This document shows positions 22,651 through 29,479 of a stretch of 64,000 bases of DNA, piece after piece. Under the pieces are notes generated by a model. The model was given only the letters and a program-made list of their open reading frames with translations. It ran no database searches and was not told where the DNA came from. Within the stretch, counting starts at the first letter, position 1. Every line of letters begins with the position of its first letter. The DNA comes from the human T2T-CHM13v2.0 reference genome, Homo sapiens: assembly GCF_009914755.1 (NCBI RefSeq), contig NC_060925.1. The stretch is one strand, 5' to 3'. The translations under genes and the position numbers were made by a program.

Positions 22651-22830
22651 GTTTCTGGAGTTTTGAAAAACCATTTGTTGTCCCACAGCAAATGAATGGT
22701 TTTTTGAAACTCCAGAAATATCCAGATTATATGAAGTCAAATATTAGAATTTTTAAACACTTATGCTTATTTCTAAGTAATAATAGAAATGAAATTATAT
22801 GATACATTTTATTATTAAAGATGATGTTCT

Positions 22831-22987
22831 GGCACTGAGCTTAGTTGCTGTCTCCACTGCTCCATCTTCTCTGTTCCAGGAGTCCCTGAGTGATTCTACT
22901 GCAGCCTCTGTCTGTCATCCTGTGACCTGCAGGTACTGAGAGGAGATCCATAGAAAAGACTCCAGAACATATGGAGGCTGGGAAATG
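22831..22987 (+). other. KRAB zinc-finger gene exon-1-like segment (5' UTR + ATG) fused to the L1 5' end
   Basis: gtctccactgctccatcttctctgttccaggagtccc...cagcctctgt...cctgtgacctgcaggtactg..ggagatccatag..aagactccagaaca..tggaggctgggaaATG matches the recalled first exon of ZNF91/ZNF141-type genes (…ccctgtgacctgcaggtattgggagatccacagctaagacgccaggacc…ggaagcctagaaATG). Needs an alignment to confirm. Confidence 0.7.
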
Positions 22988-25900
22988 TACTGGTTGATTC
23001 CACCGTGCTGTCATGGCTGCTGGCATACATGAATGAACATAGATCCTGATAAAACACTTTGGCTAGAACCACCCATTGGAGTGTTGTGGCCAGTAGACTA
23101 GGAGCACTTTGGCCCCACCAGCATAGCAGGTTTCTAATCTCCAGGGACTGGAGAACAAAGCTAGAAGCTGAGTACCAGCCCCCCAGAGTCACAGCATGCA
23201 GATCAGAAGTGCTGAGCTGAGCCTTTGCCCTGTAAAACTTTCCAGATACGAATTCAGTTGACTGAACCCACCTCATGTTGCAATCAAACCACCAAGGGCA
23301 TCAGAGAAGATAAAAGCCAAAAAAAAAAAAAAATCCAAAGTACAGCATCTTCAAAGACTGAGGGATCATCAGCCCACACAAATGAGAAAAAAAACCAATG
23401 CAAGAAGTCCAGCAATTCAAAAAGCCAGAATGTCTTCTTACCTCCAAATGACCATACTAGTTCCCCAGAAATGGCTTTTAACCAGGCTGAAATGGCTGAA
23501 ATGACAGGAAGAGGATTCAGAATATGGATAGGAACAAAGATCATTGACAGGAGAAAGTCTAAACTCAATCCAAGGAAACTAAGGAATACAATACAATGAT
23601 ATAAACGATGAAAGATGAAATAGCTATTTTAGAAAGAACCAAATTGATCTGATAAAGCTGAAAAATTCATTTCAAGGATCTCGTAATAAAATGCAAGTAT
23701 TAACAGCAAAACCAACCAAGCTGAGGAAACAGTCTCAGAGCTTGAAGACTAGTTCTCCAAACTAACTCAGTCAGACAAAAATAAAGAAAAAACAATAAGG
23801 AAGAATGAACAAAACCTCTGAGAAATATGGGCTTATGTGAAGAGATCAATCTATGACTCATTGGCATCCCTGAAAGGAGGCAGAGAAGACAAGCAAGTTG
23901 AAAAACATATTTGAGGACACCATCCATTAAAGTTTCCCCAACCTTGCTAGAGAGATGAACATTTAAATTCAGGAAATGCAGAGAACTCTTCTGGGATACT
24001 ATACAAGATGATCATCCTCAAGTCACATAGTAATCAGATTCTCAGAGGATGAAATGAAAGAAAAAATGTTAAAGGCAGCTAAAGAGAAGGGAGGAGACAC
24101 CTACAAAGGGAACCCCATCAGCCTAATAGCAGACCTTTCAGCAGAAACCCTATAAGCCATAAGACATTGGGGGCTATATTTAGCATCTGTAAAGAAGAGA
24201 AATTTCAACCAGTAATTTCATATCCAGCTAAACTAAGCTTCATGAGCAAAGAAGAAATAAGATCATTTTCAGAGAAGCAAATGCTAAGGCAATTCATTAC
24301 CACCAGTCCTACCTTACAAGGGGCCCTTAAAGGAGTGCTAAATATGGAAATGAAAGGCTGTTACCAGCCCAACACAAAAACACATTTAAGCACAGAGACC
24401 ATTGACACTATAAAGCAACCACACAAACGAGTCTGTATAACCAGCTAACAACATGACAACAGGATCATATCTTCACATATCAATATTAATCTTGAATGTA
24501 AACAGACAAAATGCCTCAATTAAAAGGCACAGAGTAGCAAGTTGGATAAAGAAGCAAGATCCAACTGTATGTAGTCTTCAAGAGGACCATCTGACATGCA
24601 ATGACACCCACAGACTCAAAGTAAATAAGTGGAGAAAAATCTATCAAGCAAACAGAAAACAGAAAAAAGTAGGAGTTACTAGTCTAATTTCAGACAAAAC
24701 AGACTTTAAACCAACAAAGATCAAAAGCAACAAAGAAGAGCATTACATAATGGTAAAGGGTTCAATTAAACAAGAAGACATAGCTATCGTAAATATATAT
24801 GCACCCAACACAGGATACCCAGATTCATATAGCAAGTTCTTAGAGACCTGCAAAGAGACTTAGGTAACCACACAATATTAGTGGGAAACTGCAACACCCC
24901 ACTGACAGATCATTGAGATAGAAAACTAACAAAGATATTTGGGACCTGAACCTGACACTTGACCAAATGGGCCTAAACAACATCTACAGAACTCTCCACA
25001 CAAAACCAAAAGAATATACATTTGTCTCATCTGCACATGGCACATACTCTAAAATTAACCACACAGTTGGCCATAAAACAACCCTCAGCAAATTTAAAAA
25101 AGACCCAAATCATGCCAAACACACACTCAGACCACAGTGCAATAAAAATTGAAATCAGTATGAAGAAAATCATTCAAAACCACACAACTACATGGAAATT
25201 AAACAACCTGCCGCCAAATGACTTTTGGGTAAATTATGAAATTAAAGCATAAGTCAAGTAATATTTTGAAACGAATGAGAACAAAGATACACTGTACTAG
25301 AATCTCTAGGAAACAGCTAAAGCAGTATTAAGAGAAAAGCTTATAGCACTAAATGTCCACATCCAAAAGGTAGAAAGATCACAATTAACAACCTAACATC
25401 ATACTTGAAGGAATTAGAAAAACAAGAGTGAAGTAACCCCAAAGCTAGCAGAAGACAAGGAATAACCAAAATCAGATTTGAACTGAAGGAAATTAAGATG
25501 CAAAAACCATACAAAAGATCAACAAATCAAAGGGCTGGTTATTTGAAAGGATAAATAAGATTGACAGACTGCTAGCTAGACTGATAAATAAAAAAAGAGA
25601 GAAGTTCCAAATAAACACAATCAGAAATGACAAAAGGGACATTACCAATGACTCCACAGAAATACACAAACTCTCAGAGACTACTATGAACACTTCTATG
25701 CACACAAACTAGAAAACCTAGAAGAAATGGATAAATTCTTGGAAACATACAACCTCCTATGTTTGAACCAGGAGGCAATTGAATGCCTGAACAGACCAAT
25801 AACAGTTTCCAAAATTAAATCAGTAATAAAAATCCTACCAACCAGAAAAAGCACAAGACCAGAAGAATTTACGGCCAAATTCTACCAGATGTATAAAGAA

Positions 25901-28480
25901 GAGCTGCTACCATTCCTACTGAACCATTCCAAAAAATTCAGGAGGAGGGTCTCCACTCTAACTACTTGTATGAGACCAGCATCATCCTAATACTGAAACC
26001 TGGCAGAAAAAAAAAAAACAAAAAAGAAAATTTCAAGCCAATACCCCTAATTAACATAGACACAAAAATCTCCTACAAAATGCCAGCAAATTGAATGCAG
26101 CAGAACATCAAAGAGCTAATCCACCATGATTAAATAGGCTTTAACCCTTGGATGGAAAGTTGGTTCAACATACACAAATCAATAAATGTAATTCACCGCA
26201 TAAACAGAACTGAAAACAAATACCACATGATTACCTCAATAGATGCAGAGAAGGCTTTTGATAAAATTCAACATCCCTTCATGTTACAAACCCTCAACAA
26301 GCTAGGCATTGAAGGGACCTACCTCAAAATAATAAGAGCCATCTATGACAAACCCACAGCCAACATCATACCGAACGGGCAAAAGCTGGAAGCATTCCCC
26401 TTGTGAACTGCAACAAGACAAGGATGCCCACTCTCACCACTCCTATTCAAATAGTACTGGAAGTCCTAGCCAGAGCAATTAGGCAAGAGAAATAAATAAA
26501 ACCCATCCAAATAGGAAGAGAGGAAGTCAAATTATCCTTGTTCGCCAACAATATGATTCTATATCTAGAAAACCCCATAGTCTCTGCTCAAAAGCTCCTA
26601 GATCTGATAAACAACTTCAGCAAAGTGTCAACATATATAAAACCAATGTACAAAAATCACTATCATTTATATACATCAACAGCTTCCAAGCTGAGAACCA
26701 AATCAAGAATGCAACCCTATTCACGAACACCACAAAATGAATAAAATACCTAGGAATACAGTTCACCAGGGAGGTGAAAGATCTCTACAATAAGAATTAC
26801 AAAACATTGCTCAAAGAAATTAGAGATGACAGAAACAAATGGGAAACATTCCATGCTCATAAATTGGAAGAGTCAATATTGTTAAAATGCCCATACTGCC
26901 CAAAGCAATTTGCAGATACTATGCTAATCCTATCAAACTACCAACACTATTCTTCACAGGACTAGAAAAAAACTATTTTAAAATTCATATGGAGCTAAAA
27001 ACAAATAGCCAAGATAATCCTAAGCAAAAAGAACAAAGCTGGAAGCATCATGTTACCTGACTTTGAACTATACTACAAGGCTATCATAACCAAAACAGCA
27101 TGGTACTGATACAGAAACAGATGCATAGACCAATGGAACAGAATAGAGAGCCCAGAAATAATGCTGCACACCTACAACCATCTGATCTTCAACAAAGCTG
27201 ACAAAAACAAGCAATATGGAAAGGACTCCATACTCAATAAATGGTACTGGGCTAACTGGCTATCCATATGCAGAAGATTGAAACTGGACCCCTTCCTTAT
27301 ACCATATACCAAAATCAACTCAAGATGGATTAAATTTTAAATCTGAAACCTAAAACTTTAAAAACCCTGGGAAATAACCTAGGAAATACCATTCTGGACA
27401 AAGGCCCTGGTAAAGACTTGATGATGAAGATGCCAAAAGCAATTGTGACAAAAACAAGAATTGATAAATAAGGCCTAATTAAACCAAAGAGCTTCTGAAC
27501 AGAAAGGGAAACTATCAACAGAGTAAATAGACAGCCTGGAGCATGGGAGGAAATATCTGCAAACTATGTATCTGACAAAGGTCTAATATCCAAATCTATA
27601 AGAAGGTTAAACTAATTAACAAGCAAAAACCAAACAACTCCATTAAAAAGTGAGCAAAGGACATGAATAGACATTTGTCAAAGGAAGTCACACATGTAGC
27701 CAACAGGCATATGAAAAAATACTCAGCATCGCTAATTATTAGAAAAATGCAAATCAAAACCACAATGAGATACCATCTCACACCAGTCAAAATGCCTATT
27801 ATTAAAAAGCCAAAAAATAACAGGTGTTGGCGAGGTTTCAGAGTAAAGAGAATGCTTATACGCTGTTGGTGGGAATGTAAATTAGATTAGCCAGTGTGGA
27901 AAACAGTTTGGAAATTTCTCAAAGAACATAAAACAGAACTGCCTTTTGACCCAGCAATCCCATTACTGGGTACATATCTAAAGGAATACAAATTGTTCTA
28001 TCATAAAGACACACGCATGTGTATGTTCATCATAGCACTCTTTACAATAACAAAGACACGGAATCAATCTAAATGCCCATCAATGATAGACTGGATAAAG
28101 AAAATGTGGTACATATACACCATGGAATACTATGCAGTCATAAGAAAGAATGAGATGATGTTCTTTGCAGCAACATGGATGCAGGTGGAGGGCCTTATCC
28201 TAAGCAATTTAATGCAGGAAGAGAAAACCAAATATTGCATATTCTCACTTATAAGTGGGAACTCAACACTGAGTACACATGGACGCAAAGAAGGGAAAAA
28301 CAGACACTAGGGCCTACTTGAGGGTGGAGCGGGGAAGGAGGGAGAGGATTAAAAAACTACCTGTTGGTCACTATACTTACCCCCTGGGTGATGAAATAAT
28401 CTGTACACCAAAACCCTGTCACATGCAATTTACCTATATAATAAGCCTGCATATGTACGTTTGAACCTAAAATGAAAGTT
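22831..28480 (+). mobile_element. Near-full-length inactive L1PA15/16-like element with a non-L1 5' leader
   Basis: Disrupted ORF1 (~23390-24400). ORF2 starts at 24453 (MTTGSYLHISILILNVN, APE domain); RT motif degenerate (LFANNMILY, ~26540); C-term at 27663-28310; 3' UTR follows. TSD aagatgatgttct (22818-22830) / aagaatgatgttct (28481-28494). Confidence 0.93.
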
Positions 28481-29479
28481 AAGAATGATGTTCTACAGCA
28501 TTTTCTTCAAAACTTTACTCTTAGAGCCCATAAGCAAAATCCAATGTACTACTAGTTAACTTTAATCTCCCATTTGAAGTTTCCAATCTTATAATTCTCA
28601 CAAAATCTATGCCTCTTAAACTCTAATATCCTTATATACTTAAATAACTCTGAAATAAACTTGGAAGTTCTATCTGTATTCTCATATTTCAACAGTGATT
28701 ATCTTCCAATAATAAAACAGAACTACTCACTTAGAAGGCTTTTGAAAAAGGCCTAAATGGGGGCTAAATACAAAATGTCTATGTGAGTATTTGTCTATTC
28801 AGAATGTATTTTGGCAAATACGACTGCACAGTAGTAGAGTACTCATAATTTGTATTCCCGCTATTCGTCTGGCCAAGTTCAAGTTTCCTAAACTCTCAGA
28901 TTCTATTATCATCTATGATGGTGATCAATATACCCCGTATTGAGAAGACCAAGCCATGAGTCTGAGCTTCTGCTAAATGCCTTTTCTAATTTAGTTTTTT
29001 CAAAGTTTTTGAGCGTTCTTTTGGGTTATTCAATAACATGGGGTTTCCTGATATTGTCTTATTCTCTATTTGTTTTTGTTCTTGTCCCTCCAAATGAATT
29101 CTAAATATCTGATGGTCAGAAACAGAATTAATTCTCAATAAAATTTTATAGGTATGGGTATAAGTGGGCACGTTGTTCTCTACCAAACCCCTAAACCCAG
29201 GAAACAGCCACCTCTAGTTGTCCGGCACTTGGAACAACCCTTCCCAGTGAAATGATGGAAAGAGGCACATTCAAGGAAAAATGTTCTGCATTAAAATGGT
29301 CACCTATTTTGCTGTGAACAATTTGTCTTGAGATAGTCTTCCCGATATTCCTAAGATTCCCCCTTATTTATCACTTCTCTCTCTGCAGATGTTCAGTCTA
29401 CCTATCTCTTTCTTCTCCTTACTCTCTCTGCCTGTCCCAAATTTCTGGTTCCCCTAACTTGCAGGCCTCACATTACCTG

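What the first reader, a model, noticed from the sequence alone, without database searches (positions are those of the whole stretch)
22831..28494. L1 carrying a captured KRAB zinc-finger first exon: candidate spliced 5' transduction
Seen in the sequence: one TSD (aagatgatgttct / aagaatgatgttct) brackets a 5.65-kb L1PA15/16-like element. Its first 157 nt end in ggaggctgggaaATG (22985-22987), after which L1-type 5' UTR begins (tactggttgattccacc...accacccattggagtgttgtggccag). Recalled knowledge: this leader closely resembles exon 1 of ZNF91/ZNF85/ZNF141-type KRAB-ZNF genes, which ends exactly at ...gaaATG before the GT donor. Inference: a KZNF promoter transcript was spliced from its exon-1 donor into a cryptic acceptor in an intronic L1 5' UTR, and that L1 then retrotransposed the chimeric RNA. 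This would parallel MAST2 exon capture by SVA_F1. It would be a fossil of an L1 driven by the promoter of a gene family that includes L1/SVA repressors. If other copies share the junction, it defines a hidden L1 sub-lineage. The G right after the TSD is compatible with copying to the cap.
Basis: partly seen in the sequence, partly recalled or inferred. Interest (0 to 1): 0.85.

Follow-up and report, generated by a model that had tools for sequence, protein, structure and literature searches.

The report
Old L1 carrying a KRAB-ZNF first exon
An ancient, dead L1 retrotransposon upstream of CD53 carries the first exon of a KRAB zinc-finger gene in place of its own promoter; this kind of exon-plus-L1 fusion has recently been described, so this is a new example rather than a new phenomenon.

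Summary
A 14-16 nt target-site duplication (22815/22817-22830 and 28479/28481-28494) brackets one 5.65-kb insertion. It consists of a 157-nt leader (22831-22987), 12 unassigned bases, then an L1 with part of its 5'UTR, ORF1, ORF2 and 3' end.

The leader is a KRAB-ZNF exon 1. It is 79-80% identical to an exon at chr7:65.52 Mb. It aligns with exon 1 of five genomic loci on chr7, chr19 and chr1, all of which end at ...GAAATG followed by GTGAGT. In processed pseudogenes the same exon joins a KRAB box at that exact base.

The acceptor side is not. L1 homology is only demonstrable from 22996-23000. Related L1s show no AG at the join. The 12 intervening bases best match an internal piece of KZNF exon 1, not L1. 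The L1 lacks the first 0.9-1.3 kb of its 5'UTR.

No second copy shares the junction, so no hidden sub-lineage was found.

The kind is in print: Law & Burns (2025 preprint, 2026 paper) list 17 exon/L1 chimeras, one of them with ZNF681. In passing I found at least 10 further KZNF-exon/L1 chimeras with different junctions. Their recurrence appears not to be described.

The parts
22815..22830 (+). 5' copy of the target-site duplication (TTAAAGATGATGTTCT; core AAAGATGATGTTCT 22817-22830)
   Evidence: family D14. It directly abuts the first base of the leader.
22831..22987 (+). 157-nt leader: a KRAB-ZNF exon 1 (5'UTR plus start codon) that ends at the exon's splice-donor boundary (...GGGAAATG)
   Evidence: 79-80% identical over its whole length to G000:C7:65521854-65522002. 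(alignment A1): five gene copies continue with GTGAGT after the ATG; the KRAB box follows the same ATG in retrocopies.
22988..22999 (+). 12 bases (TACTGGTTGATT) of unresolved origin at the join
   Evidence: the L1 profile alignment starts only at 22996; the best match is the exon-1-internal stretch that follows CTGCAG (p about 0.001, uncorrected for 8 candidates); no support for L1 sequence downstream of an AG.
23000..23381 (+). 3' remnant (about 0.38 kb) of an L1 5'UTR; the first 0.9-1.3 kb, including the L1 5' start, is missing
   Evidence: 629 first-look candidates, best non-self 77-78% identical; profile positions 292-638 of 641; in 13 of 14 matching relatives the L1 5' start lies 929-1340 nt upstream of the equivalent point; the 14th, L052, gave 475.
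23382..24448 (+). Decayed ORF1. The start ATG at 23382-23384 was read by eye; the C-terminal dsRBD-like domain lies at 24083-24448
   Evidence: sequence. PF17490, E 4.1e-21.
24441..28310 (+). Decayed ORF2, broken into many open stretches: endonuclease region 24441-24863, reverse transcriptase 26134-26406
   Evidence: ORF list. PF03372 E 0.0068 (below cut-off), PF00078 E 7.8e-9.
28311..28480 (+). L1 3' end with a degenerate A-rich tail (aaaatgaaagtt)
   Evidence: homology of other L1 copies runs to 28480.
28479..28494 (+). 3' copy of the target-site duplication (TTAAGAATGATGTTCT; core 28481-28494)
   Evidence: family D14.

Best explanation
This is a fossil chimeric L1 insertion. One RNA was reverse-transcribed into this site in a single target-primed event tens of millions of years ago. 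That RNA carried, from 5' to 3', exon 1 of a KRAB-ZNF gene of the chr7q11.21/chr19p12 type, a few extra bases, and an L1 that lacked the first kilobase or so of its 5'UTR but kept ORF1, ORF2 and the 3' end.

The two parts were joined at the RNA level by use of the exon-1 splice donor. The most likely route is that a promoter-less L1 lying in or next to a KZNF gene was transcribed from the KZNF promoter. It was then spliced from ATG|GT into an acceptor a few bases upstream of the truncated L1. This matches the published RAP1GDS1/L1PA2 case. Trans-splicing is the published alternative.

Shown: the co-insertion, the identity of the leader, and its exact end at the donor. Inferred: splicing itself, cis versus trans, and the acceptor.

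The copy arrived without any promoter, because exon 1 carries only sequence downstream of the transcription start. That fits its having left no offspring.
For: - One target-site duplication encloses leader plus L1.
- The L1 domains are in order on the + strand.
- The leader is 79-80% identical over all 156-157 nt to a chr7 exon that is followed by GTGAGT. It aligns with four more gene copies that end at the same base.
- The same base is the exon 1/KRAB exon junction in retrocopies.
- The first intron bases are absent, so this is not plain read-through (intron candidate p 0.09-0.41).
- Related L1s carry hundreds of bases of 5'UTR upstream of the join that are missing here.
- A sister case shows the mechanism directly. 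At L077 (chr6:25.07 Mb) exon 1 is followed by 77 nt that match intron 1 of about 20 chr19/chr7 KZNF loci. In ten of these, read against the exon-1 hits, the stretch lies 0.9-1.9 kb downstream of exon 1. In the three gene copies examined it begins exactly after ...cctttAG, and in L077 an L1 5' start follows.
- Published parallels (Law & Burns, sections and Table S5 read): 17 exon/L1 chimeras, 6 ending at splice donors, 4 with short unexplained bases at the join, most with L1 longer than 5 kb, and one cis-spliced 5'-compromised L1.
Against: - No acceptor can be shown on the L1 side.
- The 12 bases at the join are unexplained. Their best match (p about 0.001 before correction for 8 candidates) is an internal piece of KZNF exon 1. 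That would put the KZNF-to-L1 join at a non-splice position with a CCA overlap, which looks more like template switching or a later deletion.
- No source L1 was found. There is none in 9.7 kb downstream of the best-matching exon, none among the 40 scored of 629 5'UTR candidates lies in a KZNF cluster, and no second copy of the junction exists.
- Whether leader and L1 arrived together could not be checked in other species.
Confidence: 0.6

Rival explanations
1. Template switching or RNA ligation. During reverse transcription of an L1 RNA the enzyme left the L1 template about 1 kb from its 5' end and continued on a spliced KZNF transcript. Alternatively the two RNAs were ligated. The join to L1 would then lie inside KZNF sequence, not at a splice site.
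For: - The bases after the ATG match the exon-1-internal stretch GTACTGGGAGATCCA at 13 of 16 columns by eye; the anchored alignment score gives p about 0.001 uncorrected.
- One other chimera (L004) has a complete second copy of that stretch right after its ATG.
- The putative KZNF/L1 boundary shares CCA.
- The L1 is 5'-truncated, as in U6/L1-type chimeras.
- There is no AG on the L1 side.
- Two by-eye cases (L075, L076) seem to join the L1 5' end inside exon 1.
Against: - The complete exon 1 still ends exactly at its donor base.
- After correction for the 8 candidates tested, p is about 0.01 on only 12-16 bases.
- A genome-wide pattern search for the ATG-plus-second-copy arrangement found only L004 itself above background: 37 hits against 17 for the reversed control, and none in KZNF context.
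Confidence: 0.2
2. A chimera of the commoner type (KZNF exon, then a short spacer, then a full-length L1 from its 5' start) inserted here. It later lost about 1 kb by an internal deletion that runs from just after the exon into the repeat-rich 5'UTR.
For: - Ten other loci have a KZNF exon-1-like leader followed within 152 nt by a sense L1 5'UTR of this same type. In eight of them (by eye) the L1 part begins at or near its 5' start; L010 and L072 join inside the 5'UTR.
- The 5'UTR of this family is built of variable repeats; its length upstream of the join varies from 929 to 1340 nt among relatives.
- The window copy has a further 14-nt gap against the profile.
Against: - It needs an extra event.
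- At least two other chimeras (L010, L072) also join inside the 5'UTR at other points, so internal joins do occur.
- Nothing in the sequence marks a deletion scar.
Confidence: 0.12
3. Two unrelated events: a KZNF retro-fragment and an L1 that merely lie side by side. Or the leader is ordinary L1 5'UTR.
For: Nested and adjacent insertions are common.
Against: - The only target-site duplication lies outside both parts, and none lies between them.
- The leader ends at an exon boundary.
- 17 related L1 5'UTRs carry different sequence upstream of the join.
- The leader is found upstream of no other L1 at this junction.
Confidence: 0.05

Closest known systems
mRNA first-exon/LINE-1 5' chimeric insertions (Law & Burns, bioRxiv 10.1101/2025.02.02.635956; Cell Genomics 2026, PMC13174262)
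   Same: - The host gene's first exon lies in sense orientation upstream of an L1 longer than 5 kb.
- The exon ends at its splice donor.
- One target-site duplication lies around both parts.
- A few unexplained bases sit at some joins.
- Their Table S5 (read in full, long cells cut) already lists one KZNF case: ZNF681 exon 1 plus L1 at hg38 chr3:94441985-94449213.
   Different: - This locus is not among their 17 rows.
- The L1 here is older and is cut about 1 kb into its 5'UTR, at a place with no recognisable acceptor.
- The donor gene belongs to a large paralogous family, so the exact source gene cannot be named.
RAP1GDS1/L1PA2 promoter co-option by a 5'-compromised intronic L1 (same paper, sections 25 and 33; passages read)
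   Same: An L1 without a working promoter region carries host exons and a short spacer (15 bp there, 8-12 nt here) at its 5' end. Transcription is proposed to come from the host promoter, with cis-splicing.
   Different: There the source L1 sits in the intron and two offspring share the junction. Here no source and no sibling were found.
SVA_F1 with MAST2 exon 1
   Same: A host first exon, spliced at its donor, is carried at the 5' end of a retrotransposon.
   Different: SVA_F1 became a propagating subfamily. This L1 chimera is a single copy.
Classical unspliced 5' transduction, and U6/L1 template-switch or ligation chimeras
   Same: Extra non-L1 sequence lies inside the target-site duplication at the L1 5' end. 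The L1 is 5'-truncated, as in U6/L1.
   Different: The extra sequence is not contiguous genomic flank, since the intron start is absent. It is also not a small RNA. It ends at an exon boundary.

Membership tests
LINE-1 insertion made by target-primed reverse transcription | ORF1 and ORF2 (endonuclease, reverse transcriptase) in order on one strand | tested here: met
   PF17490 E 4e-21; PF00078 E 8e-9; the PF03372 match is weak (E 0.007, below cut-off). The reading frames are broken.
LINE-1 insertion made by target-primed reverse transcription | Target-site duplication at both ends and an endonuclease-type target | tested here: met
   14 of 16 positions identical at the element's ends; TT/AAAG upstream.
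LINE-1 insertion made by target-primed reverse transcription | Poly(A) tail | tested here: inconclusive
   only a degenerate A-rich stretch (aaaatgaaagtt) lies before the 3' repeat.
L1PA15/L1PA16 subfamily | Best match to that subfamily consensus | not testable with these tools
   No Dfam or RepeatMasker is available. The best genomic relatives of the 5'UTR are 77-78% identical, which fits an old primate L1.
KRAB-ZNF exon 1 (chr7q11.21/chr19p12 type) | Homology over the whole exon to exon 1 of genomic loci | tested here: met
   79-80% to chr7:65.52 Mb over query positions 1-156. The alignment includes loci at chr7, chr19 and chr1.
KRAB-ZNF exon 1 (chr7q11.21/chr19p12 type) | Ends at the start codon, directly before a GT donor | tested here: met
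   all 5 gene copies examined read GAAATG then GTGAGT (GTGAGA at the chr19:21.16 Mb locus); the window's leader ends at that ATG.
KRAB-ZNF exon 1 (chr7q11.21/chr19p12 type) | Spliced to a KRAB-box exon in mature transcripts | tested here: met
   the KRAB box (PF01352) begins 3 codons after the ATG in retrocopies L007 (E 1.9e-24) and L067 (E 7.5e-5). KRAB exon 2 of the chr7:65.52 Mb locus itself was not found within 9.7 kb.
Spliced exon/L1 chimera (Law & Burns type) | Host first exon in sense orientation, ending at its donor, inside the L1's target-site duplication | tested here: met
Spliced exon/L1 chimera (Law & Burns type) | Splice acceptor (AG) at the L1 side of the join | tested here: not met
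   the relatives have no AG at the aligned position; the nearest is about 18 nt upstream; 252 of 300 random fillers fit as well. The published set also has cases without an acceptor, so this feature is not strictly defining.
Spliced exon/L1 chimera (Law & Burns type) | Leader and L1 arrive at the same time in the species tree | not testable with these tools
   No other primate genomes or multi-species alignments are held.
Propagating chimeric sub-lineage (SVA_F1-like) | Several copies share the junction and have different target-site duplications | tested here: not met
   1 of 1 candidate is the locus itself; none of the 39 non-self hits spans the join.
Unspliced 5' transduction | The leader continues into the genomic sequence that follows it at the source (the intron start) | tested here: not met
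   the intron-start candidate gives p 0.09 (12-mer) and 0.41 (16-mer).

The most novel reading that the evidence does not exclude
First exons of the ZNF91-like KZNF family, the family that includes L1 and SVA repressors, may be a recurrent and strongly over-represented 5' partner of L1.

Besides this locus, at least 10 loci carry a KZNF exon-1-like leader followed by a sense L1 5'UTR. The leader appears alone, with the KRAB-A exon, with the KRAB-B exon, or with an intron-1 stretch. Every junction is different.

One locus maps to a real intron-1 acceptor, with an L1 target-site-like AAAAAG... stretch just before the L1 start. That would mean L1s resident in KZNF genes were repeatedly launched from KZNF promoters over tens of millions of years, across several L1 5'UTR types.

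This would be a so far uncounted side of the KZNF-L1 arms race and a possible route for 5'UTR replacement in L1.
Probability: 0.45. Interest if true: 0.65.

Novelty: new member of a known kind. Interest (0 to 1): 0.4.

Why it matters
On its own the element is an inert fossil 1.5-7 kb upstream of CD53, and it adds one more example to a recently catalogued class.

It matters in two modest ways. First, it shows that the class reaches back to old primate L1 families and to multi-copy host exons. A pipeline built on unique sequence and alignment-based dating would tend to miss both. Second, together with the sister loci it points at KZNF genes as unusually frequent donors.

A rough comparison of frequencies:
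- KZNF exon 1: 10 or more chimeras against about 100 first-look hits, which include gene copies and dispersed retrocopies.
- All other genes in the published list: 16 chimeras.

This comparison is crude. The two searches differ in method and in the age range they reach.

If the excess is real, it links where L1 source elements sit with the genes that evolve to silence them. It also gives a concrete path by which L1 could swap its 5' end.

Tried and rejected
- **Sibling copies.** The junction query 22930-23050 found only itself.
- **Source L1.** In 9.7 kb downstream of the best-matching chr7 exon I found only a 197-nt L1 3' fragment and no KRAB exon. The intron-1 stretch known from chr19/chr7 genes is absent from the first 1.5 kb of the L002 and L005 introns.
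- **Acceptor in the L1 5'UTR.** No support.
- **Origin of the 12 join bases, 8 candidates.**
  - Exon-1-internal stretch: p 0.001.
  - The L077 intron-1 stretch: p 0.001-0.006, but the gene version of that stretch gives 0.15-0.25.
  - KRAB exon 2 start: 0.02-0.5.
  - Intron start: 0.09-0.41.
  - None is decisive after correction.
- **Genome-wide pattern for "ATG followed by a second exon-1 half".** 37 hits against 17 for the control, and only L004 is in context.
- **Spacers of other chimeras against KZNF intron 1.** Only L077 and L003 match. My by-eye likeness of the L014 and L072 spacers to that stretch is rejected.
- **Target-site duplication of a sister chimera (L006, chr6:41.12 Mb).** Its L1 3' end was found but no convincing duplication. 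For L013 the expected 3' region held no L1.
- **False or doubtful leads.** L078 is a KZNF fragment nested in an L1 ORF2, not a chimera. L069 is a short fragment nested in another L1.
- **Literature.** Searches gave nothing relevant in their listings; led to Law & Burns.
Full report
**What is there**

The window is human chr1 (T2T) just upstream of CD53. Between 22831 and 28480 lies one insertion framed by a direct repeat. The repeat reads TTAAAGATGATGTTCT at 22815-22830 and TTAAGAATGATGTTCT at 28479-28494, with 14 of 16 positions identical. The same call lists 31 approximate repeat families in these 5.9 kb. What counts is therefore that this repeat sits exactly at the two ends, next to a TT/AAAG endonuclease-type site.

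The body is L1:
- ORF1 dsRBD domain at 24083-24448.
- A weak endonuclease match at 24441-24863.
- Reverse transcriptase at 26134-26406.

All lie on the + strand, in frames broken by many stops. L1 homology runs to 28480.

**The leader is a KRAB-ZNF first exon**

The whole human assembly could be searched. The 156-157-nt leader matched 15 other places (16 of 16 candidates scored, one being itself). The best match is chr7:65521854-65522002, at 79% over the full length.

Using that chr7 exon as query gave 38 hits. They include chr7:65.25 Mb, five places in chr19:19.9-22.0 Mb, two at chr1:246.6 Mb, and many dispersed copies.

At the five gene-like loci I read, the exon ends GAAATG and is followed by GTGAGT (GTGAGA at the chr19:21.16 Mb locus) (alignment A1). 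These are chr7:65.52 Mb, chr7:65.25 Mb, chr1:246.6 Mb, chr19:21.99 Mb and chr19:21.16 Mb.

In dispersed intronless copies the same ATG is followed by a KRAB box: L007 at E 1.9e-24 and L067 at E 7.5e-5. The window's leader stops at that very base (22987).

That these regions are the chr7q11.21 and chr19p12 KZNF clusters is my recollection; no call gave gene names.

**The join**

After the ATG come 12 bases (TACTGGTTGATT), then clear L1 5'UTR from CCACCGTGCTG at 23000.

A profile of 17 related 5'UTRs aligns from 22996, at profile position 292 of 641. The relatives carry hundreds of further bases upstream. In 13 of 14 relatives that matched the L1 5' start, that start lies 929-1340 nt upstream of the equivalent point; the fourteenth gave 475. 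The L1 part thus lacks about 1 kb of a roughly 1.4-kb 5'UTR, including the region where an L1 promoter would lie.

There is no AG at the aligned join in the relatives; the nearest is a CCCCAG about 18 nt upstream. The 12 bases fit L1 sequence after any nearby AG no better than random 12-mers do: 252 of 300 random fillers scored as well.

I compared the 12 bases with eight candidate sources:

| Candidate | p (uncorrected) |
|---|---|
| Exon-1-internal stretch that follows CTGCAG | about 0.001 |
| KRAB exon 2 start | 0.02-0.5 |
| Intron start | 0.09-0.41 |
| Intron-1 stretch, L077 copy | 0.001-0.006 |
| Intron-1 stretch, gene copies | 0.15-0.25 |

One other chimera (L004, chr14:39.72 Mb) has a full second copy of that exon-1 half right after its ATG. 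However, a genome-wide pattern search showed no further case.

I conclude that the donor side is exact and the acceptor side is unresolved.

**No lineage**

A 121-nt query across the join found only itself. In one search none of the 39 non-self hits spans the join. Exon 1 carries no promoter sequence, and the L1's own 5' kilobase is missing. The copy could therefore hardly have been transcribed after landing, which fits its being single.

**Sister loci**

I read or tested 31 loci carrying the leader.
- 10 have a sense L1 5'UTR of the same type starting within 152 nt of the end of the leader match: L004, L006, L009, L010, L013, L016, L068, L069, L072, L074.
- 3 have L1 only 514-770 nt further on: L011 and L012 (which look like duplicates of each other) and L020.
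- 18 have none against my reference set. These include:
  - one gene (L073);
  - seven processed pseudogenes (L007, L064, L067, L070, L079, L080, L081);
  - one fragment nested in an L1 (L078);
  - several that by eye join other L1 types or parts (L014, L065, L066, L071, L075, L076, L077).

The junctions all differ:
- Exon 1 alone, then a spacer and the L1 5' start: L013, L069.
- Exon 1 plus the KRAB-A exon, then the L1 start with almost no spacer: L009, L068.
- Exon 1 plus the KRAB-B exon: L074.
- Use of the internal CAG|GTAC site: L006.
- Joins inside the 5'UTR at other points: L010, L072.

Target-site duplications of these loci were not established. I tried one, L006, and found none that convinced me.

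The clearest case is L077 (chr6:25.07 Mb).
- After exon 1 come 77 nt that match about 20 places in chr19:21.4-24.2 Mb and chr7:65.7-66.6 Mb, plus single hits on chr3 and chr10.
- In ten of these the stretch lies 0.9-1.9 kb downstream of exon-1 hits on the same strand (read).
- In the three gene copies examined it begins directly after ...cctttAG.
- In L077 an L1 5' start follows the stretch directly.
- The last 14 of the 77 nt begin AAAAAG after TT. That is what the upstream target-site copy of a resident sense L1 would look like; this last point is my inference.

**What is known**

Law & Burns describe 17 mRNA or lncRNA/L1 5' chimeras in hg38. I read the abstract and sections 24 and 34 of the preprint, passages of other sections of the preprint, a term search of the journal version's text, and that version's Table S5 in full with long cells cut. 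Their main points:
- The chimeras are mostly first exons in sense orientation, and most have an L1 longer than 5 kb.
- Six end at splice donors.
- Four have short unexplained bases at the join.
- Some lack any acceptor, above all when the L1 starts at its first bases.
- They propose trans-splicing.
- They describe one cis-spliced case, RAP1GDS1 with a 5'-compromised L1PA2, joined through an acceptor 15 bp upstream.
- They speculate that such events renew L1 5'UTRs.

Their table lists one KZNF case (ZNF681, chr3:94.44 Mb) with the donor marked undetermined. The window's locus and my other loci are not in it. The string ZNF does not occur in the main text of either version. My other literature searches listed nothing on KZNF exons fused to L1. 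That is the extent of my claim that the recurrence is not in print; the paper's PDF supplements could not be read.

**Verdict**

The element is a new member of a known kind. The age, tens of millions of years, is only a rough inference. It rests on 77-78% identity to other copies and 79-80% identity to the gene exon. The recurrence of KZNF exons as L1 partners is the part worth following up.

Noticed in passing
L004 (G000:C14:39.72 Mb), L006 (C6:41.12 Mb), L009 (C8:16.23 Mb), L010 (C18:44.39 Mb), L013 (C1:157.43 Mb), L016 (C1:91.18 Mb), L068 (C23:86.15 Mb), L069 (C3:7.25 Mb), L072 (C1:176.89 Mb), L074 (C3:143.35 Mb): Ten further loci have a KZNF exon-1-like leader followed within 152 nt by a sense L1 5'UTR of the same type as the window's. 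Some also carry the KRAB-A or KRAB-B exon. Every junction is different. Target-site duplications were not established, and L069 is a short fragment nested in another L1.
   Followed up: partly
L077 (G000:C6:25072500-25072990); gene copies L084-L086 (C19:22.77 Mb, C7:66.21 Mb, C19:21.65 Mb): ZNF91-like exon 1 is followed by a 77-nt stretch that matches about 20 loci, mostly in the chr19 and chr7 KZNF clusters; in ten of them it lies 0.9-1.9 kb downstream of an exon-1 hit, that is, in intron 1. In the three gene copies examined the stretch begins right after ...cctttAG. A younger-looking L1 5' start follows it directly in L077. This is a direct trace of splicing into KZNF intron 1 upstream of a resident L1. 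No extant source copy was seen.
   Followed up: partly
L004 (G000:C14:39718374-39718560): After the exon-1 ATG comes a second, diverged copy of the last 52 nt or so of exon 1. It starts exactly after the internal CTGCAG, as if one exon-1 donor had been spliced into the internal AG of another exon 1. A spacer and an L1 5' start follow.
   Followed up: partly
L065 (G000:C6:115122080-115122600): KZNF exon 1 is followed by 21 nt that begin GT and end AG. Then come only the last 180 nt or so of an L1 and an A-rich tail. The whole is framed by AAAAAAGCAAA on both sides: a short exon/L1-3'-end chimera (read by eye).
   Followed up: no
L003 (G000:C11:96.62 Mb): Exon 1 is followed by a stretch (GTGATGTGTCCTCAGCC...) that also occurs in KZNF intron 1, about 160 nt downstream of the 77-nt stretch (19 of 19 and 16 of 16 base matches). 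This suggests further alternative intron-1 exons in retrocopies.
   Followed up: no
L011 and L012 (G000:C10:81.10 Mb, minus strand, and C10:80.40 Mb, plus strand): These are two nearly identical copies of one locus, probably a segmental duplication. A partial KZNF exon 1 ends at the ATG and is followed by unidentified sequence. L1 appears only about 0.5 kb further on.
   Followed up: no
window 22985-23032: In the present sequence the captured KZNF start codon opens a 15-codon reading frame that ends at TGA 23030-23032, well upstream of ORF1 (read). In the chimeric RNA it would have acted as a short upstream reading frame.
   Followed up: no
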